In this document: positions 11,619 to 57,155 of the stretch, piece by piece
Layout of the letters: each line of letters opens with the position of its first letter
Numbering within the stretch: the first letter of the stretch is position 1
Source of the DNA: Nitrospirota bacterium
Lineage (GTDB): Bacteria > Nitrospirota > Nitrospiria > Nitrospirales > Nitrospiraceae
Assembly: GCA_005877775.1 (NCBI GenBank)
Contig: VBOJ01000050.1
Coordinates: 1 to 60,013 of the forward strand
Direction of reading: 5' to 3'
Length of the DNA: 60,013 nucleotides
Position numbers and translations under genes: made by a program
Notes under the pieces: generated by a model
What the model was told of the DNA's origin: nothing
The model's input: only the letters and a program-made list of their open reading frames with translations
Database searches by the model: none

Positions 11619-12889
11619 CCGCCGCAGCGACTCCCCTCACGCCAGAGACCGAGGCCAAAGTCCAGGAGATCGGCGAAACGGACGTTCTGGTCGGCATTCC
11701 CAGTTATAACAACACCGACACGATCGGCCATGTCGTCCGCGCAGTCAGCGCCGGACTGGCCAAATACTTTGCCCGATCGCGAGTGGTCTTGGTCAATTCA
11801 GACGGTGGCTCGTCTGATGGCACGCCCGAAGCTGTCTCCCGAGCGGTAGTGGACCTCGGAACCCTGCTGATCAGTGAGCAGCAGAGTCCGCTGCACAAGA
11901 TCATCACGCCCTACCATGGAATCCCCGGGAAGGGCAGCGCGTTTCGGACCATCTTCGAGATCGCGAGGCGGCTGAAGGCAAAGGCCTGCGCGGTCGTGGA
12001 CTCAGATCTCCGAAGCATCACGCCGGAGTGGATCGAGTTGTTGGCCCGGCCAGTGTTGGAGGAAGGCTACGACTATGTCGCACCCTACTATCTCCGTCAC
12101 AAATACGACGGAACCATTACCAACAGCATCGTCTATCCCCTGACCCGCGCCCTCTACGGCCAGCGCATTCGCCAGCCGATTGGCGGTGATTTTGGCTTCT
12201 CCGGGAGGCTGGCGGAACATTATCTGGAGAAACATGTCTGGGAATCTGATGTGGCCCGCTTCGGCATTGATATCTGGATGACGACAGAGGCGATCGCCAA
12301 CGGAGCGAGGGTCTGTCAGAGCTTTTTAGGGGCGAAAATCCATAACCCCAAGGATCCAACTGCCGATCTCTCGGCTATGCTGGTTCAGGTCATGGGAGCT
12401 GTCTTCGCTTTGATGGAAGAGCATCAACCAGTCTGGGGGGGAGTGAAGGGTTCGAATCCCGTCAAGCTGTTTGGGTTCCAGTACGATGTCGGCGTCGAGC
12501 CGGTCAACGTCAACGTGGATCGCATGATCAGCAGTTTCCGGCAGGGCCTCGCTGATCTAGAGCCAATCTGGAGGGAGATGCTGGCGCCGGGTACGGTCGA
12601 AGGGCTCCTTCCCTTAAAGGACTGTCCACTCCAGGCCTTTCGCATTCCCGACGGGCTCTGGGCTCGACTCGTTTATGATGTCGCTGTGTCCTATCACCAT
12701 CGTGTCATGCCACGCGAGCACCTGCTCAAAGCGTTCACACCGCTCTATCTGGGGCGCACAGCGACGTTTGTGCTGGAGACACAAGGACTCACATCTTCCG
12801 AAGCTGAAGGGCGGATTGAGTCACTCTGTCAAGCCTTCGAGGACCGCAAGCCGTATCTGGTAGAACGATGGGGCGCAGGACGCGAGTAG
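11615..12889 (+). CDS. GT-A fold (family 2-like) glycosyltransferase, specificity unknown
   Basis: 424 aa. VLVGIPSYNNTDTIGHVV...VNSDGGSSDGT and VVDSDL motifs. ATGA overlap with the upstream gene. Confidence 0.6.
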   Translation: MTAAATPLTPETEAKVQEIGETDVLVGIPSYNNTDTIGHVVRAVSAGLAKYFARSRVVLVNSDGGSSDGTPEAVSRAVVDLGTLLISEQQSPLHKIITPYHGIPGKGSAFRTIFEIARRLKAKACAVVDSDLRSITPEWIELLARPVLEEGYDYVAPYYLRHKYDGTITNSIVYPLTRALYGQRIRQPIGGDFGFSGRLAEHYLEKHVWESDVARFGIDIWMTTEAIANGARVCQSFLGAKIHNPKDPTADLSAMLVQVMGAVFALMEEHQPVWGGVKGSNPVKLFGFQYDVGVEPVNVNVDRMISSFRQGLADLEPIWREMLAPGTVEGLLPLKDCPLQAFRIPDGLWARLVYDVAVSYHHRVMPREHLLKAFTPLYLGRTATFVLETQGLTSSEAEGRIESLCQAFEDRKPYLVERWGAGRE

Positions 12890-12973
12890 CGTATAGCCAA
12901 TAGCGAACAGCTCTGAACCCGAAGTTGTGCAGGCCCTGCTGGCTCTTCGCTATCAGCTCTCGAGGAGGACATC

Positions 12974-31261: not shown

Positions 31262-31413
31262 GAAGAGCCGATGGCATATGGCCGGAGGACAAGAGCTGAT
31301 GGCGTATGGCTAATGGCGAATGACCGGAGAGTTCCACTTCTTGCCATAAGCTATAAGCTCTTCCGCCCAGGCTATCGGCCGTTAGCCATCAGCTATAAGC
31401 TCTTGGGGTTTTT
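31262..31413. repeat. heptad-phased nested inverted repeat (AGAGCYG ATGGCNN / GCCATMA GCTATAA GCTCT)
   Basis: The whole nuoA-nuoB spacer reads in one 7-nt register, and its left and right halves are imperfect reverse complements. Confidence 0.85.
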
Positions 31414-31932: not shown

Positions 31933-31959
31933 AGGCCTAGTTCGGAAGTTTTGAATTGA

Positions 31960-31999
31960 GCTCACAACTCAGCACTCATCACTTAGCACTGGTTTTTGA
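31960..31999. repeat. heptad repeat ACTCAGC ACTCATC ACTTAGC ACTGGTT
   Basis: Four to five 7-nt units immediately upstream of the nuoC ATG. Confidence 0.7.
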
Positions 32000-32500: not shown

Positions 32501-32595
32501 CTCATCAGTGATGAGTCCTGAGGAATGAGTATTTGGGACGCATTGGGCGTTTCTCAACACAGATAACGCATCACGCATAACGAATCACGGGTTTT
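32501..32595. repeat. heptad repeat element (AGTGATG AGTCCTG AGGAATG ... ATAACGC ATCACGC ATAACGA ATCACGG)
   Basis: The nuoC-nuoD spacer stays in a single 7-nt register from 32507 to 32590. Confidence 0.75.
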
Positions 32596-33870: not shown

Positions 33871-33874
33871 AATG

Positions 33875-33958
33875 GTGAGGCGTGAGGAGTAAGGCGTGAG
33901 GGGTGTGGGGAGCCCGTTGGGATTTCGCCTAACTCCTCACTCCTTACGCCTAACGGAG
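33875..33958. repeat. heptad inverted repeat (GTGAGGC GTGAGGA GTAAGGC GTGAGGG GTGTGGG ... TTCGCCT AACTCCT CACTCCT TACGCCT)
   Basis: nuoD-nuoG spacer. The arms are about 80% complementary and 49 nt (7x7) apart, in the same register. Confidence 0.85.
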
Positions 33959-33966
33959 AAAAAAGA

Positions 33967-37346: not shown

Positions 37347-37874
37347 ATGGTCCTTGCCTTCTTCGCTTACTGCTCTCTGGTCAGCATTGTGGCCGGGTTC
37401 CTCACGGTTGCCCTGAAAAACCCGGTGCACTGCGGAATTGCGCTCCTGACTCTCCTGCTGCATGTGGCCGGCCTGTTCGTCCTCTTGAACGCGGAATTCC
37501 TGGCCATGGTCCAGATCATCGTCTATGCGGGTGCGATCCTGGTCCTGTACCTGTTCGTGTTGATGCTGCTCAATTTGAAGACCGACGAACGGTACTTGCA
37601 TTCAAGGTTCGCGTTGATTCTGTTCGCAGCCGTGGCAATTTGCGGCGAGCTCCTCCTCTTGATCGTGGGATCTCCTTTCGGCGGGTTGAAGGGTGACGCG
37701 CCCACGGAGGTGGTCCTCAAGGACGGAGCCAGTTATGCGATCGGCATCAAGATGTTCAGCGACTACCTGCTACAGTTCGAGATCATCGGCGTCTTCCTGA
37801 CGGGCGCAATCGTTGGGGCGATTGTGTTGGCCAAGACACCGACGTCCGCCGACATTGATAACCGTGAGGGGTAA
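37347..37874 (+). CDS. nuoJ: NADH-quinone oxidoreductase subunit J
   Basis: 175 aa, 5 TM helices, and VQIIVYAGAILVLYLFV typical of NuoJ. Confidence 0.9.
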   Translation: MVLAFFAYCSLVSIVAGFLTVALKNPVHCGIALLTLLLHVAGLFVLLNAEFLAMVQIIVYAGAILVLYLFVLMLLNLKTDERYLHSRFALILFAAVAICGELLLLIVGSPFGGLKGDAPTEVVLKDGASYAIGIKMFSDYLLQFEIIGVFLTGAIVGAIVLAKTPTSADIDNREG

Positions 37875-37947
37875 GGCGTTAGGCATGTGGCGCGAAGGCG
37901 GACAGGGTGTCGTGACCCCTTACGCCTCACCCCTTACGCCTTACGAG
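37864..37947. repeat. heptad inverted repeat (GTGAGGG GTAAGGC GTTAGGC ... TTACGCC TCACCCC TTACGCC TTACGAG)
   Basis: nuoJ-nuoK spacer. The left arm contains the nuoJ TAA stop. Confidence 0.85.
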
Positions 37948-37952
37948 TCGTT

Positions 37953-41840: not shown

Positions 41841-43556
41841 ATGATCGACTCGACCTTGCTGATTATTTTGTTCGCGCCCTTCGCGGGTGCCACCACGTTA
41901 CTGTTCGTGTCGAATAAACAGGCGCTATTGGTCCGCGTGATTGCCGCAGCCGCGGCCGGCATGTCGCTGCTCACCTCCTTCTACATGTTCTTCGCATACG
42001 ATCCTGTGGAAGGTGGATTTCAGTTCGTGAAGCGGTTTGAGTGGTCGAAGGAGTTGGGCATCGCCTTCTACCTCGGCGTGGACGGCATCGGGGCACCGCT
42101 GGTACTGGCGTCTTCCATTCTATTGTTTGCCGGGATCTTCATCTCCTGGCACATCAAGGACCGCACCAAGGAGTTCTACATTTTCTTGCTGATCCTGGCT
42201 GCCGCCACCATGGGCGTGTTCATGTCCCTGGACCTGTTCTTCCTCTATTTCTTTTATGAGATGTCGGTCATCCCGATGTACCTCCTGCTGGGGGTCTGGG
42301 GCAGTCATACCAAGGGCTACCTGGACATGTCCGATCCCGAAGGCCTGAAAAAGCGCGATTCGGTCGGGTTCATCTTCAACTTTGCCGCCAACAGTAAGGA
42401 ATACGCCGCGATGAAGTTGACGCTGTTTCTGTCCGTCGGAGCGGTCGTCGCGCTCATGGGCATCCTGTTGATCTATAAGTTCTCGGGCCTCAACACGTTC
42501 GACATCCTGGTCCTGCGCGAGCAGGCCAAGTTCTCCGGCTCGCTGGCCACGATCATTTGGCTCCTGATCTTCTTTGGGTTCGCCTCGATCGCGCCGATCT
42601 GGCCTCTGCACTCCTGGTCGCCGGTCGGCCATGCCGCGGCGCCGGCCGCCACCAGCATGTTGCACGCGGGCGTCTTGATGAAGCTGGGACATTTTTCGAT
42701 CATCCGCATTGCCTTCGAGATTCTGCCCGAGACCACCCACGAGCTGATGCCGATTGCGGCCGTGCTCTGCATCTTCAATATATTTTACGGCGGATTTGTG
42801 GCCTATTACGCACGGGACACCAAGTATGTGATCGGGTACTCCAGCTCCAGCCATATGGGGTACGTCTTCCTCGGCATGGCGGCGCTGGACTACATCAGCC
42901 TGACCGGCGCGGTGCTCTACATGTTCGCGCATGCCTTGGCCACCGGCATGCTCTTCGCGATGGCCGGGTGGATCTATGACCAGACACACATGCGCGACAT
43001 TCCGTCGCTCGGAGGACTGGTCAACCGGATGCCGTTCGTCGCAGCCTGCTTCATGGTGGCCTGTATGGCCTCGATCGGCATGCCCGGCACGGTGAACTTC
43101 ATCGCCGAAGTCATGATCATCGTCGGAAGCTGGCACAAATATCCGTTCCAGGTTCTAGTGGCCGTGGCGGGGATCGCCCTCACGATGGCGTACCTGTTCA
43201 GAATGATGCGAGGGGTGTTCTACGGACCGATGGAGCACAAGTACAGCCATGCGCACGATGCGGTGGCGCCGGTGGATCGGCTCCCGCTGTTGCTCATGAT
43301 CGCCTGCAGCATCGCGTTTGGCATCTTCCCTGGACACTTCTACGACGTCATCCGGTCCGGGGTAGACCCTCTCGTGACCCGCATCACGGCGGTTGTGCCG
43401 CTGGCGGAGCAAACCCGTGAGGAGTTAGGGGTAAGGAGTGAGGCGAAGGTCTCCGGAGATCTGAGCCGGTCGCTGCTGCCCTCCGATAACCCCTCACCCC
43501 TCACGCCGACTCGACTGAGCTCGTCGCAGGCTCACGCCTCACGAGGATCGGAATGA
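41841..43556 (+). CDS. second NuoM-type antiporter-like subunit (571 aa)
   Basis: VIGYSSSSHMGYVFLG and FFYEMSVIPMYLLLG motifs. The last ~44 codons translate a heptad repeat element. Confidence 0.85.
   Translation: MIDSTLLIILFAPFAGATTLLFVSNKQALLVRVIAAAAAGMSLLTSFYMFFAYDPVEGGFQFVKRFEWSKELGIAFYLGVDGIGAPLVLASSILLFAGIFISWHIKDRTKEFYIFLLILAAATMGVFMSLDLFFLYFFYEMSVIPMYLLLGVWGSHTKGYLDMSDPEGLKKRDSVGFIFNFAANSKEYAAMKLTLFLSVGAVVALMGILLIYKFSGLNTFDILVLREQAKFSGSLATIIWLLIFFGFASIAPIWPLHSWSPVGHAAAPAATSMLHAGVLMKLGHFSIIRIAFEILPETTHELMPIAAVLCIFNIFYGGFVAYYARDTKYVIGYSSSSHMGYVFLGMAALDYISLTGAVLYMFAHALATGMLFAMAGWIYDQTHMRDIPSLGGLVNRMPFVAACFMVACMASIGMPGTVNFIAEVMIIVGSWHKYPFQVLVAVAGIALTMAYLFRMMRGVFYGPMEHKYSHAHDAVAPVDRLPLLLMIACSIAFGIFPGHFYDVIRSGVDPLVTRITAVVPLAEQTREELGVRSEAKVSGDLSRSLLPSDNPSPLTPTRLSSSQAHASRGSE
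43417..43543. repeat. heptad inverted repeat (GTGAGGA GTTAGGG GTAAGGA GTGAGGC ... TAACCCC TCACCCC TCACGCC) inside the 3' end of the second nuoM
   Basis: Same family and same 7-nt register (arms 70 nt apart) as the nuoD-G and nuoJ-K spacers. Confidence 0.8.
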
Positions 43557-51772: not shown

Positions 51773-52084
51773 ATGAAAGGATGGTCAAGAGCCACCCTGC
51801 TGGTCTTCCTCTTCGGCTGTGCCGGATGCGCTGAAGGGGCCAAGCTGGTCCAGGAAACGGAGTCAGGAGGCGTGGTGACTTACCCCTTCAAGGGCGACAA
51901 CGGGTATCTCTTTTCTCGGTTTCGAGACGACGCCTTTCGGATCATCGAGCAACGATGCGGGAAGCAGTACATGATCGTTCGGGAGGGCGAAGCGAAGGGA
52001 CGCAGCCGCGTGTCAGGCGTGATCGAGGGGGCGGAAGAGGTGGTGACGGAACGGCGCTGGGGGCTTCAGTTCCGATGTAAGTGA
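51773..52084 (+). CDS. small lipoprotein, function unknown
   Basis: MKGWSRATLLVFLFGCAGC lipobox. The ORF extends upstream to 51602, overlapping the rhodanese gene. Confidence 0.5.
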   Translation: MKGWSRATLLVFLFGCAGCAEGAKLVQETESGGVVTYPFKGDNGYLFSRFRDDAFRIIEQRCGKQYMIVREGEAKGRSRVSGVIEGAEEVVTERRWGLQFRCK

Positions 52085-52090
52085 TCAACA

Positions 52091-52207
52091 AGAGCTGATA
52101 GCTTATAGCGAATAGCCGATGGCCAGAGTAGCCGGCAGAGCTTATGGCTCACAGCAAGAAGTCGGAGTCTCCTGCCATAAGCCATTAGCCATACGCCATT
52201 AGCTCTT
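52091..52207. repeat. heptad inverted repeat (AGAGCTG ATAGCTT ATAGCGA ATAGCCG ATGGCCA ... CCATAAG CCATTAG CCATACG CCATTAG CTCT)
   Basis: Lies between convergent genes. 52181-52207 is the reverse complement of 31291-31317 with 26 of 27 identities. Confidence 0.85.
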
Positions 52208-52789
52208 CGAAACTGCCAGCAGATCCTTGATGGTCAAGAGGCTCGTCAGCGTCAGCGCCTGTTCCTCCACAGACGCGCGCCCATCCTGCTCATTGCGATC
52301 CACGATCACCAGCGCATGGTCCACCCGCAACCCGGCCTCCCGGGCCGCCTTGGCCGCTTTAATGATGGACCCTCCTGTCGTGAGGACATCGTCCACAATC
52401 AGCGCTCGGTCTCCCGGCTTGGCTGCGCCTTCGATCAGCTTTCCGAGCCCATGGTCCTTGGGTTGCTTACGGACGACAAACGTGCGCCACTCCCGCCGAG
52501 GCCTTTCTCGATAGCCATAGTCCGAGATTGTGGTGGCAATGGCGATCGCGCCGATCTCCAGCCCGCCGATGCAATCGAAAGGCAGGTCTTTGATCGCCTG
52601 GAACGCCAGTTGGGCGACTAGATTGCGGGGAGCCGGGTGAGCCATGAGGACCCGGCAATCCACATAGAATGGGCTCATGACTCCGGAGGCCAGCTTGAAT
52701 CCGGCAGTCTGGTCCCATTTGAAAGACCGAGTCGTCAGGAAGGCTTTGGCAAGGTCCTCTTTCAACATCGTGGCGCACCAATATATCAC
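52199..52789 (-). CDS. pyrE: orotate phosphoribosyltransferase
   Basis: The PRPP-binding loop ALIVDDVLTTGGS. An alternative ATG start lies at 52768. Confidence 0.88.
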   Translation of the reverse strand: MIYWCATMLKEDLAKAFLTTRSFKWDQTAGFKLASGVMSPFYVDCRVLMAHPAPRNLVAQLAFQAIKDLPFDCIGGLEIGAIAIATTISDYGYRERPRREWRTFVVRKQPKDHGLGKLIEGAAKPGDRALIVDDVLTTGGSIIKAAKAAREAGLRVDHALVIVDRNEQDGRASVEEQALTLTSLLTIKDLLAVSKS

Positions 52790-52904
52790 GGAATCGGCTA
52801 TTCCTTGATCTTTGTCCGAATCCAGGGTACGGTTTGTGCCATGTGCTCAACGACCGGCTCGCTCTTCTGGTCGAGCCAGCCACTTCCAACCGAAAGGAGC
52901 CTGT

Positions 52905-53222
52905 ATGATTGGACGGGTCGTCGTCGCGGTCATTCTGATCATGACATTTGCAGCCCCGGTGTTCGCAGGTCCCAAATCCCCTGGCGTTGATCGCCGGGAA
53001 CATAAACAGAAGCAGCGCATCAAGCAAGGGATCAAAAGCGGAGCACTGACGAAGGAGGAGGGCAGAGCCCTGACAGCCGAACAGAAAGCGATCCGTGCCA
53101 AGGAGCGCGAGATGAAGTCAGACGGATCACTGACGAGAGAGGAACGCAAAGAACTGCATCAGGACCTCAACGAAGCCAGCAAGAACATTGCGGAGCAGAA
53201 GCACGACGCGGAAACGCGGTAG
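52905..53222 (+). CDS. small secreted Lys/Glu/Arg-rich protein
   Basis: AAAGGAG RBS, signal peptide MIGRVVVAVILIMTFAAPVFA, and a charged helical remainder. Confidence 0.55.
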   Translation: MIGRVVVAVILIMTFAAPVFAGPKSPGVDRREHKQKQRIKQGIKSGALTKEEGRALTAEQKAIRAKEREMKSDGSLTREERKELHQDLNEASKNIAEQKHDAETR

Positions 53223-53263
53223 GCGAAAGGGGTGAGGCGTTAGGCGAAACCCCGGAAGAGAGG

Positions 53264-53306
53264 AAGGGCGGCCGCTTCAGACGAGGCAGCCGCCCTTCGT
53301 GTTTTT
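53264..53306 (+). terminator. rho-independent terminator
   Basis: 9-bp stem AAGGGCGGC/GCCGCCCTT followed by CGTGTTTTT. Confidence 0.7.
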
Positions 53307-56824: not shown

Positions 56825-56911
56825 TGGTGCCGAAGCCGGGATTTGAACCCGGACACCCGTGAGGGCGCTAGACCCTGAATCTAGTGCGTCTGCCAGTTCC
56901 GCCACTTCGGC
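56825..56911 (-). tRNA. tRNA-Leu, anticodon CAG
   Basis: Acceptor GCCGAAG/CTTCGGC; anticodon stem CTAGA/TCTAG with loop TTCAGGG; long variable arm; T-arm CCGGG-TTCAAAT-CCCGG; encoded CCA. Confidence 0.9.
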
Positions 56912-56917
56912 ACGTGC

Positions 56918-57155
56918 GGGATGCTGAAATAAGCCTACAACTGCGTTCTCGCTTCGCTCAAGCCCTCAACGTACCAACAAAGAGTACGCCTCGGGGTTTC
57001 GCTTGCTGCGGCCTTGTTCTAGCCTTATTTGAGCATCCCTAAGAATTATTTCCTCAAATTTGTTCGCGGTCGCTCACTCCCTTCAACCTACGAGAAGAGT
57101 ACGCCTCGGATTCTCGCTCGTTGCGGCCTAGTTGGAAGCCATTTTGAGCAGCCCT
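56918..57155. repeat. two ~95-nt imperfect direct repeats plus an inverted 20-mer, immediately upstream of tRNA-Leu(CAG)
   Basis: R1 (56945-57040) and R2 (57062-57155) are about 75% identical by eye. 56918-56937 is the reverse complement of 57020-57039 (18 of 20). Confidence 0.7.

What the first reader, a model, noticed from the sequence alone, without database searches (positions are those of the whole stretch)
52085..52207. A near-identical inverted copy of the nuoA-B element lies between convergent genes and contains the pyrE stop
52181-52207 (gccattagccatacgccattagctctt) is the reverse complement of 31291-31317 (aagagctgatggcgtatggctaatggc), with 26 of 27 identities, about 21 kb away. The whole 52091-52207 spacer is heptad-phased, and its two halves are complementary. 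Several A-C mismatches become G-U pairs if the - strand is the RNA. The right arm overlaps the last codons and the stop of pyrE. So the element family is dispersed, not nuo-specific. Here it occupies the position of a bidirectional terminator.
Basis: seen in the sequence. Interest (0 to 1): 0.65.

Follow-up and report, generated by a model that had tools for sequence, protein, structure and literature searches.

The report
Nitrospira intergenic inverted heptad-repeat hairpin
The sequence between pyrE and a lipoprotein gene is one copy of a very abundant Nitrospira repeat: two facing arrays of loosely conserved 7-base units that can fold into a hairpin. It behaves like a fast-changing REP-type genomic repeat, and nothing shows it to be a dedicated transcription terminator.

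Summary
52181-52207(-) matches 31291-31317(+) at 26 of 27 bases. Both arms are 7-nt phased, and the AAGAGCTAA end supplies pyrE's last two codons and its stop. The - strand RNA folds better than the + strand (-56 vs -46 kcal/mol).

It is not a special copy of a nuo element. It belongs to a genus-wide Nitrospira family: AAGAGC-[N-A-T-R-G-C-N]x3-5, a loop, [N-G-C-Y-A-T-N]x3-5-GCTCTT, about 80-95 nt. A capped genome scan returned 120 or more loci, most of them Nitrospira. Sister families built on other heptads also occur in the window.

Key results:
- The two arms show no covariation. One variable position is anti-complementary.
- The sense strand shows no preference for G-U over A-C.
- There is no T-tract, no target-site duplication and no Rfam match.
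- 78% of classifiable copies lie between co-directional genes. They typically fill the spacer to within about 15 nt of the next start codon. This includes spacers of the nuo operon.
- Heptad arrays are nearly absent from divergent spacers.
- At the orthologous pyrE site, relatives carry a longer nested version, a minimal version, a GTRAGG-type or GTGAC-type heptad hairpin, or nothing (21-nt spacer).

Best reading: a REP/BIME-like repeat that evolves at the DNA level and incidentally forms an RNA hairpin. A terminator role is unproven.

The parts
52090..52128 (.). Long left arm: terminus AAGAGCT, then heptads GATAGCT TATAGCG AATAGCC GATGGCC, then AGAG. The arm starts 5 nt after the lipoprotein stop codon (52082-52084).
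   Evidence: Sequence read; motif scan; lag-7 array 52089-52125.
52137..52161 (.). Internal short left arm (AGAGCT TATGGCT CACAGCA AGAAG). It competes with the long left arm for the right arm. In the - strand minimum-energy fold it forms the inner hairpin.
52162..52173 (.). Apical loop and closing bases (TCGGAGT CTCCT). This part is not conserved across the family.
52174..52207 (.). Right arm: GCCATAA GCCATTA GCCATAC GCCATTA, then terminus GCTCTT. Its reverse complement is the 26/27 match to 31291-31317. The heptad at 52188-52194 is missing from one related soil contig.
   Evidence: 7-nt deletion at 52188.
52199..52768 (-). pyrE (orotate phosphoribosyltransferase). The last two codons (AAG AGC, 52202-52207) and the stop (TAA, 52199-52201) are supplied by the element terminus.
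   Evidence: (PF00156; sources name it orotate phosphoribosyltransferase).
51773..52084 (+). Convergent small lipoprotein-like gene (lipobox LFGC). It is syntenic with pyrE in all related loci examined.
31263..31404 (.). Compound (nested, LLRR) family member that fills the nuoA-nuoB spacer. The inner element is 31291-31362. The outer arms are 31263-31290 and 31369-31404.
12884..12960 (.). Third, smaller member of the same family, between two co-directional genes.

Best explanation
The 52090-52207 spacer is one copy of a high-copy family of intergenic repeats found across the genus Nitrospira.

Anatomy. Each element has two facing arrays of 3-5 degenerate heptads. The core A-T-R-G-C is conserved and the two bases between cores are free. 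The arrays are capped by the inverted termini AAGAGC and GCTCTT, around an unconserved loop.

Shown:
- The family is defined by sequence, not by base-pair covariation.
- It evolves fast at the DNA level. It gains and loses whole heptads, nests inside other copies, and is replaced by other heptad families or is absent altogether.
- It is tolerated almost only downstream of genes, often abutting or overlapping the stop codon and ending just before the next ribosome-binding site.

Inferred:
- It works like an enterobacterial REP/BIME element. It is transcribed as part of the flanking mRNAs.
- Both convergent transcripts here (pyrE and the lipoprotein gene) would then end in, or run through, an imperfect stem. 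That stem consists of 5-bp blocks separated by 2x2 mismatches.
- Such a stem can slow 3'-to-5' exonucleases and perhaps pause RNA polymerase or the terminating ribosome.
- It is not a canonical intrinsic terminator and is not required at this site.
- The mismatched variable positions most likely reflect survival bias against perfect palindromes and perfect tandem repeats in DNA.
For:
- Architecture: LR 48, solo L 45, solo R 35, LLRR 5, but RL only 2. Clean LR copies have a median length of about 90 nt.
- No covariation: 79.0% of cells pair against 80.2% in shuffles, and the covariation score is 0.103 against 0.118.
- Variable positions: N1 is complementary in 23 of 129 cases against 40 expected (P < 0.001). 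N2 and R show no excess.
- No strand signal: G-U 25 against A-C 34 on the sense strand.
- Gene context: tandem 62, convergent 13, divergent 5. Both gaps are 30 nt or less in 36 of 62 tandem cases.
- Any-family lag-7 arrays occupy 27% of tandem, 16% of convergent and 3% of divergent spacers. Lag 6 and lag 8 controls give 0-4%.
- Heptad indels: a 7-nt deletion of exactly 52188-52194, and one extra AGCTATC in L122.
- Turnover at the orthologous pyrE site:
  - L122: 184-nt nested version.
  - L123-125: 47-nt minimal version.
  - L134: independent-looking ATRGC copy.
  - L128 and L131: GTRAGG type.
  - L129: GTGAC type.
  - L126/127: none (21-nt spacer).
- No T-tract at the element and no excess of canonical terminators in the first 40 kb of the window.
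- RNA contigs span the nuoB-nuoC spacer, and the nuoA-nuoB spacer of a related strain (weak evidence).
Against: - No transcript 3' ends, RNA half-lives or protein binding were measured, so the REP-like RNA role rests on analogy.
- The defining REP features were not found: there is no 5' GTAG, and no flanked Y1 transposase gene in about 0.5 Mb.
- The pyrE 3' junction carries a heptad hairpin of some family in 8 of 9 lineages examined, against a background occupancy of 16-27%. This hints at a site-specific benefit such as termination or insulation of convergent transcription, or else an insertion hot spot. A purely passive reading does not predict it.
- Conservation of specific core bases without covariation fits recognition by a protein at least as well as it fits an RNA stem.
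Confidence: 0.55

Rival explanations
1. Bidirectional, U-tract-independent hairpin terminator. This is the first reader's idea, comparable to the palindromic TRIT repeats proposed for Mycobacterium tuberculosis. The stem alone would stop or destabilise RNA polymerase arriving from either convergent gene.
For: - It lies exactly between two convergent stop codons.
- It is predicted to be stable on both strands.
- Canonical hairpin-plus-T terminators are not enriched in the window, so another 3'-end signal may be needed.
- The same junction carries a heptad hairpin of one of three families in 8 of 9 lineages.
- Heptad arrays are almost absent from divergent spacers.
- TRIT is a published precedent (PMC3152330).
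Against: - There is no T-run.
- 78% of classifiable family copies lie between co-directional genes with no room for a promoter, including nuoA/B and other nuo spacers.
- Arms show no covariation and no G-U preference on the sense strand.
- L126/127 manage with a 21-nt spacer and no hairpin.
- A canonical terminator follows a half-element at 53267-53305, so this genome does use ordinary terminators.
Confidence: 0.2
2. Arrays of binding sites for a sequence-specific protein. The protein could bind double-stranded DNA (nucleoid or global-regulator type, as proposed for the paired tandem hepta- and octanucleotide sites of Geobacter metallireducens). It could instead bind single-stranded RNA or DNA in the manner of TRAP. 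In this reading the hairpin potential is a by-product of a symmetric head-to-head arrangement.
For: - Specific bases (A, T, G, C of the core and the AAGAGC terminus) are nearly invariant. The two spacer bases are free and not complementary.
- Spacing is strictly 7 nt.
- LR orientation outnumbers RL by 48 to 2, which hairpin formation alone does not require.
- There is a published analogue with the same architecture, also found inside operons (PMC2700814).
Against: - No candidate protein was identified.
- At least three or four different heptad motifs occupy equivalent sites and replace each other. That would need several readers or one very tolerant reader.
- Arms are sometimes translated as protein tails, which suggests weak constraint on position.
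Confidence: 0.2
3. Purely selfish non-autonomous mobile element (MITE- or REPIN-like). An unidentified transposase would recognise the AAGAGC termini and subterminal heptads, and the element would have no host function.
For: - It has terminal inverted repeats and subterminal repeats.
- Copies nest in the loops of other copies (LLRR and LLR architectures; L122).
- Close relatives show presence/absence and replacement polymorphism.
- It is depleted from promoter-bearing divergent spacers.
- Insertions capture or extend gene 3' ends.
Against: - No target-site duplication at any offset or length tested.
- No conserved target beyond the terminus itself.
- Copies within a genome are no more alike at variable positions than copies from different genomes (3.83 against 3.70 of 9), so there is no master-copy burst signature.
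- No transposase gene flanked by elements in the sample.
Confidence: 0.3
4. Chance resemblance of two low-complexity spacers, with no real feature.
For: The arms have low information content. Unrelated family arms already share about 21 of 27 bases.
Against: - No matches are expected in shuffles.
- Lag-7 arrays number 12, against 0-4 for other lags, and lie in or at the edges of intergenic spacers.
- Hundreds of loci share the termini and the architecture.
Confidence: 0.01

Closest known systems
REP / BIME / REPIN elements of Enterobacteria and Pseudomonas
   Same: - High-copy, extragenic, imperfect palindromes.
- Found between convergent and co-directional genes, including inside operons, and rare between divergent genes.
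- Often very close to stop codons.
- Compound or nested forms occur, and no target-site duplication.
- The proposed roles (mRNA 3' protection, attenuation, protein binding) fit the positions seen here.
   Different: - No 5' GTAG, and no RAYT gene found nearby.
- Arms are arrays of degenerate heptads, not a single palindromic unit.
- Arm mismatches are not compensated.
- Copies within a genome are not clustered around a master sequence.
Paired tandem hepta-/octanucleotide sites of Geobacter metallireducens (classes 1-3; PMC2700814)
   Same: - Two arrays of 4-5 tandem degenerate 7-8-nt units on opposite strands, with variable spacing.
- Dozens of intergenic copies, including between operon genes (proB-proA).
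- Function unknown.
   Different: - Different unit sequences (GTTGCTYN, MTYCTGA) and a different phylum.
- No AAGAGC-type terminus is described in the passages read.
- They were interpreted there as IHF/HU or global-regulator sites, without a test.
- Homology was not examined here.
Tandem heptamer repeats (cyanobacterial STRR, Xanthomonas/Nostoc GGGAATC, Beggiatoa TAACTGA)
   Same: - 7-nt unit, intergenic, and length-polymorphic in whole units.
- Sometimes present as inverted pairs.
- The non-Nitrospira hits (cyanobacteria, Acidobacteriota, Bacteroidota) are mostly of this perfect-tandem kind, built on AGCTGAT or AGCTAAT.
   Different: In Nitrospira the units are deliberately non-identical: adjacent heptads share the two free bases in only 8% of cases. 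They are always few (3-5), capped by AAGAGC, and usually paired with an inverted array.
TRIT palindromic terminator-like repeats of Mycobacterium tuberculosis (RNIE paper, PMC3152330)
   Same: A repeated palindrome near gene ends in a genome poor in canonical terminators, proposed to act bidirectionally.
   Different: TRIT copies cluster at gene termini. This family lies mostly between co-directional genes, just upstream of the next start codon, and it shows no structural covariation.

Membership tests
REP/BIME/REPIN | Short imperfect palindrome, high copy number, extragenic | tested here: met
   120 or more loci. Only 2 of 98 complexes were called inside a gene. The window holds 3 copies in 60 kb.
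REP/BIME/REPIN | Conserved 5' GTAG tetranucleotide next to the palindrome | tested here: not met
   The termini are AAGAGC and GCTCTT. The 20 nt outside them show no conserved motif in 154 termini.
REP/BIME/REPIN | Cognate RAYT (Y1/HUH transposase) gene flanked by the repeats | tested here: inconclusive
   Only 5 ORFs were flanked by elements in about 0.5 Mb of Nitrospira loci. Judged by eye from the translations, none resembles a transposase. No whole genome was searched.
REP/BIME/REPIN | Bias to convergent and co-directional spacers, rare in divergent ones | tested here: met
   Tandem 62, convergent 13, divergent 5. Lag-7 arrays occupy 27%, 16% and 3% of those spacer classes.
MITE (DDE-transposon derived) | Terminal inverted repeats | tested here: met
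   AAGAGC...GCTCTT is invariant in the selected clean elements.
MITE (DDE-transposon derived) | Target-site duplication flanking the element | tested here: not met
   Flank identity equals the shuffled expectation for k = 2-8 at three terminus offsets.
MITE (DDE-transposon derived) | Near-identical copies within a genome (recent amplification) | tested here: not met
   Within-genome arms share 3.83 of 9 variable positions, against 3.70 between genomes.
Intrinsic (Rho-independent) terminator | G+C-rich stem-loop directly followed by a U-tract | tested here: not met
   No terminator-like site was called at 52085-52207 on either strand. The flanks read CGAAACTG (+ strand) and GTTGATCA (- strand).
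Intrinsic (Rho-independent) terminator | Transcript 3' ends map to the stem base | not testable with these tools
   Only low-depth assembled soil RNA contigs were available.
Structured RNA family (Rfam type) | Compensatory base-pair changes support the stem | tested here: not met
   The count of structure pairs gave observed values at or below the shuffled values on all five measures. There was no Rfam hit, even at E <= 10.
Tandem heptamer repeats (STRR-like) | Head-to-tail 7-nt units with copy-number polymorphism in whole units | tested here: met
   Lag-7 arrays number 12, against 0-4 at other lags. There is a 7-nt deletion at 52188 and an extra AGCTATC in L122. The units are degenerate, not perfect.
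Geobacter-type paired tandem hepta/octamer sites | Two arrays of 4-5 degenerate tandem units on opposite strands, variable spacer, intergenic including intra-operon | tested here: met
   The architecture matches the published description. Sequence relatedness was not tested.

The most novel reading that the evidence does not exclude
Nitrospira may carry a modular system of 'heptad hairpins'. Several interchangeable families (ATRGC, GTRAGG, GTGAC and others) share one design: 3-5 degenerate heptads in two facing arrays, with the free positions kept non-complementary. These would be produced by a dedicated, still unknown mechanism and read by an unknown heptad-recognising factor. They would serve as U-tract-independent transcript-boundary or insulation signals, which would explain why the pyrE 3' junction is re-occupied by a different family in lineage after lineage.
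Probability: 0.15. Interest if true: 0.8.

Novelty: new variant of a known kind. Interest (0 to 1): 0.5.

Why it matters
Nitrospira are the main nitrite oxidisers and complete ammonia oxidisers in soils and in water treatment. Their gene regulation is almost unstudied.

- In the loci sampled here, about a quarter of mid-length co-directional spacers hold a heptad array. In this window these include spacers of the nuo (complex I) operon.
- Whatever these elements do to mRNA ends, stability, translation of the gene upstream or chromosome structure, they would do it genome-wide.
- They rewrite the C-terminal tails of proteins (PyrE and a NuoM-like subunit).
- They are likely to break short-read assemblies and to mislead gene callers.
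- The absence of covariation, together with the active avoidance of complementarity, is an unusual signature. It separates 'sequence-read' repeats from 'structure-read' repeats and gives a clear handle for experiments.

I found no paper describing this family in the searchable library.

Tried and rejected
- Rfam, at gathering thresholds on the whole window and at E <= 10 on 51950-52350, gave only two tRNAs and noise.
- Soil RNA-seq runs are stored as low-depth contigs (depth 2-6). They give no 3' ends and no strand information. They were useful only for the 7-nt indel, for a related strain with a GTRAGG element at this site, and for weak read-through evidence.
- Searches for target-site duplications and for a conserved insertion target were negative.
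- A shifted pairing register (plus or minus 1-2 heptads) could not explain the arm mismatches. No register beat the shuffled control meaningfully.
- The idea that whole elements are built in one heptad phase was rejected. Length modulo 7 is spread over all classes.
- No transposase was found among ORFs flanked by elements.
- Seven literature searches found no description of this Nitrospira family. They did turn up the Geobacter, Beggiatoa, Xanthomonas/Nostoc and TRIT analogues.
- My first lag-7 scan threshold was too strict and missed the element. It was replaced by motif scans and a scan requiring 15 of 21 matches.
- The home-made gene caller misses small genes and over-extends some ORFs, so the context counts are approximate.

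Full report
OBSERVATION

The 27-mer AAGAGCTGATGGCGTATGGCTAATGGC occurs at 31291-31317(+) and, with one mismatch, at 52181-52207(-). No match is expected in shuffled sequence. The similarity extends to 75 nt at 83%.

The spacer between the lipoprotein-like ORF (stop at 52082-52084, + strand) and pyrE (52199-52789, - strand) reads as follows:
- AAGAGCT GATAGCT TATAGCG AATAGCC GATGGCC AGAG (52090-52128)
- an 8-nt link
- a short second left arm, AGAGCT TATGGCT CACAGCA AGAAG (52137-52161)
- a loop
- CTCCT GCCATAA GCCATTA GCCATAC GCCATTA GCTCTT (52169-52207)

The pyrE reading frame ends AAG AGC TAA, which is the reverse complement of 52199-52207. So the element terminus supplies Lys-Ser-stop.

As RNA, the + strand folds at -46.1 kcal/mol (z -3.1) and the - strand at -56.1 kcal/mol (z -5.3). 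Three A-C mismatches at the R/Y position of the heptad become U-G on the - strand.

Only the arms are heptad-phased, not the centre. And 26/27 identity is inflated by the low information content of the family. Arms from unrelated genomes share 21.4/27 on average, 0.48% of such pairs reach 26/27, and the window arms also match arms in L093 and L001 at 26/27.

WHAT IT IS

A degenerate pattern built from the arm (AAGAGCTNATNGCNNATNGCNNATNGC) was scanned against one genome per bacterial and archaeal species. Most are Nitrospira or Nitrospiraceae genomes assembled from metagenomes.

The PyrE protein's closest named relatives are also Nitrospiraceae, and the window sequence is held by soil metagenomes. 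The organism is therefore a soil Nitrospira.

In Nitrospira loci the pattern is nearly always the left arm of a discrete element:
- AAGAGC-N-[N-A-T-R-G-C-N]x3-5
- a 20-40 nt unconserved centre, often beginning GGC(A/C)(A/C)GA and ending TTCT(T)GCC
- [N-G-C-Y-A-T-N]x3-5-N-GCTCTT
- total length about 80-95 nt

The architectures found were LR 48, solo L 45, solo R 35, LLRR 5, LLR 3 and LRR 2, but RL only 2. The window's nuoA-nuoB element (31263-31404) is a nested LLRR form. The pyrE element is an LLR form on the + strand. A third, smaller copy lies at about 12884-12960.

Hits outside Nitrospira (cyanobacteria, Acidobacteriota, Bacteroidota and others) are mostly perfect tandem heptamers without an inverted partner.

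The window also holds sister families with the same design but other heptads:
- GTRAGG type at 33873-33960, 37864-37949, 43416-43510 and 53217-53253
- a CTCANCA type at 31958-31991
- another type at 32505-32595

Arrays with 7-nt periodicity number 12 in the window, against 0-4 for periods 4-11. All lie in or at the edges of intergenic spacers.

THE STEM IS NOT MAINTAINED BY COVARIATION

Forty-three clean elements were anchored at their termini. The conserved core positions pair almost always. The three variable positions per heptad do not pair more often than arms shuffled between elements.
- The dedicated tool gives 79.0% paired cells against 80.2 +/- 0.7% in shuffles, and a covariation score of 0.103 against 0.118.
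- The base after GC (N1) is complementary in 23 of 129 cases against 40 expected (P < 0.001). It is therefore actively non-complementary. N2 and R show no excess.
- Shifting the register by whole heptads does not rescue complementarity.
- Adjacent heptads within an arm share their free dinucleotide in only 8% of cases.
- In co-directional gene contexts, the sense strand carries 25 G-U against 34 A-C at R/Y positions (p = 0.30). The strand asymmetry seen in the pyrE copy is therefore not a family property.
- No Rfam family matches.

The predicted stem is a series of 5-bp blocks separated by 2x2 mismatches. The sequence pattern is that of an element read by its bases, or shaped by selection against perfect palindromes and perfect tandem repeats in DNA. 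It is not that of an RNA helix kept by compensatory change.

WHERE THE FAMILY SITS

I used a simple codon-bias gene caller, which is approximate: it misses some small genes and over-extends some ORFs.
- The complexes fall as tandem 62, convergent 13, divergent 5, inside a called gene 2, at a contig edge 16.
- In tandem contexts the median gap is 7.5 nt from the upstream stop and 14.5 nt to the downstream start. Both gaps are 30 nt or less in 36 of 62 cases.
- The ribosome-binding site often follows GCTCTT directly.
- After removing the spacers by which loci were ascertained, lag-7 arrays of any family occupy 27% of tandem, 16% of convergent and 3% of divergent spacers of 40-400 nt. Controls at lags 6 and 8 give 0-4%.

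This is the REP-type distribution. Because there is no room for a promoter, downstream genes such as nuoB and the other nuo genes must be transcribed through the elements.

Metatranscriptome contigs give weak support for read-through. One spans the nuoB-nuoC spacer at 100% identity. Another joins the nuoA 3' end to the nuoB 5' end in a related strain with a different spacer. DNA carry-over in these libraries cannot be excluded.

The element has no T-run, and no terminator-like site is called there. Canonical terminator-like sites are not enriched in the first 40 kb of the window (17 against 15.9 expected, and 14 against 14.2). One clear example does follow a half-element, at 53267-53305.

HOW IT EVOLVES

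The orthologous pyrE-lipoprotein-rhodanese neighbourhood was recovered from nine lineages.

| Locus | PyrE identity | State of the pyrE-lipoprotein spacer |
|---|---|---|
| L121 | identical protein | Same spacer as the window |
| L122 | 93% | Same two termini; 184-nt spacer with an extra complete element nested in the loop and one more AGCTATC heptad |
| L123-125 | 81% | Same AAGAGCTGA stop; 47-nt spacer with four left heptads and one right heptad |
| L134 | 72% | ATRGC element whose terminus overlaps the stop as TAAAGAGC |
| L128 | 92% | GTRAGG-type hairpin whose left arm encodes the PyrE tail (ALGVSREA*) |
| L131 | 80% | GTRAGG-type hairpin whose left arm encodes the PyrE tail (ASGVRR*) |
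| L129 | 78% | GTGAC-type hairpin reaching into both genes |
| L126/127 | 90% | No element; 21-nt spacer; a longer PyrE tail (TDLQEVQQKAGGR) of a type also seen in several other orthologues |

Further points:
- PyrE tails after the conserved LLTI(K/D)DL are hypervariable among 120 orthologues. Many read A-[SL]-[GD]-V-[RK]-R, as expected from GTRAGG heptads.
- A soil contig lacks exactly the heptad 52188-52194. Another contig, from a strain 90-95% identical, continues after 52082 with GTGAGGGGTAAGGGGTAAGG.
- There is no target-site duplication and no conserved target.
- Arms within one genome are no more alike at variable positions than arms from different genomes (3.83 against 3.70 of 9).
- No transposase-like ORF was found between elements in the sample.

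The shown behaviours are whole-heptad slippage, nesting, and loss or replacement. The mechanism that creates new copies is not identified.

INTERPRETATION

Best supported (confidence about 0.55). This is a REP/BIME-like repeat that evolves at the DNA level. It is tolerated downstream of genes, is co-transcribed with them, and gives both convergent mRNAs an imperfect 3' stem. That stem may retard exonucleases or pause polymerase and ribosomes. This last step is inferred by analogy with REP elements and was not tested.

The terminator reading (about 0.2) keeps some support:
- the element's location between two convergent stop codons
- the lack of an excess of canonical terminators in the window
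- a striking re-occupation of this junction, where 8 of 9 lineages carry a heptad hairpin against a 16-27% background

It conflicts with four findings:
- the missing T-tract
- the intra-operon majority of copies
- the missing covariation
- the empty site in L126/127

A protein-binding-array reading (about 0.2) fits the base-specific conservation, the strict 7-nt spacing and the LR orientation bias. It is what was proposed for the architecturally similar paired hepta- and octanucleotide sites of Geobacter metallireducens (PMC2700814). No binder is known, and several unrelated heptads are interchangeable. A purely selfish mobile-element reading (about 0.3, overlapping with the first) fits the nesting and the polymorphism, but lacks duplications, master copies and a transposase. 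These readings overlap, so the figures do not sum to one.

COMPARISON AND NOVELTY

The closest known kinds are:
- REP/BIME/REPIN: same distribution and behaviour, but no GTAG and no RAYT found
- the Geobacter paired tandem sites: same architecture
- tandem heptamer repeats of cyanobacteria, Xanthomonas and Beggiatoa (PMC4692102, PMC4679880): same unit length and slippage, but perfect units and usually unpaired
- TRIT of M. tuberculosis (PMC3152330)

Seven full-text searches found no description of the Nitrospira family. I rate it a new variant of a known kind. It is abundant and taxonomically coherent, and it has an unusual signature: anti-complementary free positions, interchangeable heptad families and capture of protein C-termini. 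Its function is unknown. Interest 0.5.

Noticed in passing
window 33873-33960, 37864-37949, 43416-43510, 53217-53253: A second heptad-hairpin family (units N-G-T-R-A-G-G and the complement) occupies several nuo-operon spacers and the spacer after ORF 52812-53222. It has the same design as the ATRGC family. Rotated, the two units share GGCGT (GGCGTAT against GGCGTGA).
   Followed up: partly
window 31958-31991 and 32505-32595: Two further 7-nt periodic arrays of other sequence types lie in the nuoB-nuoC and nuoC-nuoD spacers: CTCANCA, and GTGATGA/ACGCATC. Nearly every spacer over 60 nt in the first half of the nuo operon holds a heptad array.
   Followed up: partly
window 41841-43556: The NuoM-like ORF has no stop before 43556. 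It reads through the GTRAGG element at 43416-43510, which adds a roughly 50-residue tail (...REELGVRSEAKVSGDLSRSLLPSDNPSPLTPTRLSSSQAHASRGSE*) that overlaps the next gene's start (ATGA).
   Followed up: partly
window 53217-53305: A solo GTRAGG left arm (53217-53253) is followed directly by a canonical G+C-rich hairpin plus a T-run (about 53267-53305). Loci L011, L054 and L112 show the same arrangement, with an ATRGC left arm followed by a canonical terminator.
   Followed up: no
PyrE orthologues P0001-P0120; loci L128, L129, L131, L134: PyrE C-terminal tails are hypervariable. In the four lineages checked at DNA level, the tail is encoded or truncated by the arm of a heptad element. The common tail motif A-[SL]-[GD]-V-[RK]-R matches translated GTRAGG heptads.
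   Followed up: partly
L015, L031, L040, L049, L054, L061, L103 (next to ATRGC elements): A conserved motif, about GTGAAGCGTATCTCGT(Y)GGGGAAA (reverse complement ...ACGAGATACGCTTCAC), recurs immediately outside the AAGAGC terminus in several different genomes. It could be another repeat family or a conserved neighbouring feature.
   Followed up: no
window 4526-4610 (+) and 56825-56911 (-): Two tRNA-Leu genes (anticodons GAG and CAG) lie in opposite orientation. They account for the long-range inverted repeats I2 and I4 reported by the repeat finder.
   Followed up: yes
window 56980-57040 and 57095-57155: A 61-nt direct repeat (77% identical, 115 nt apart) begins AAGAGTACGCCTCGG and lies in the gene-poor stretch beside tRNA-Leu(CAG). 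Its nature is unknown.
   Followed up: no
window 51256/51257: The NAGPA-like gene (+, ends 51256) and the rhodanese gene (-, ends 51257) are convergent with a 0-nt spacer. At least one convergent pair in this window therefore has no intergenic hairpin at all.
   Followed up: no
L017 6219-6274 (Deinococcus MAG): A hairpin built from the same ATRGC-type heptads (GCTGATGGCCGATAGCTGATGGC ... GCCATCTGCTATCAGCTAT) occurs outside Nitrospira. L060 (a Planctomycetota bin) and L062 (a Nitrososphaera bin) carry typical Nitrospira-type elements and may be mis-binned contigs.
   Followed up: no
L034 6740-7093: A 118-aa ORF that looks, by eye, like a four-helix-bundle protein is flanked on both sides by ATRGC elements.
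   Followed up: no
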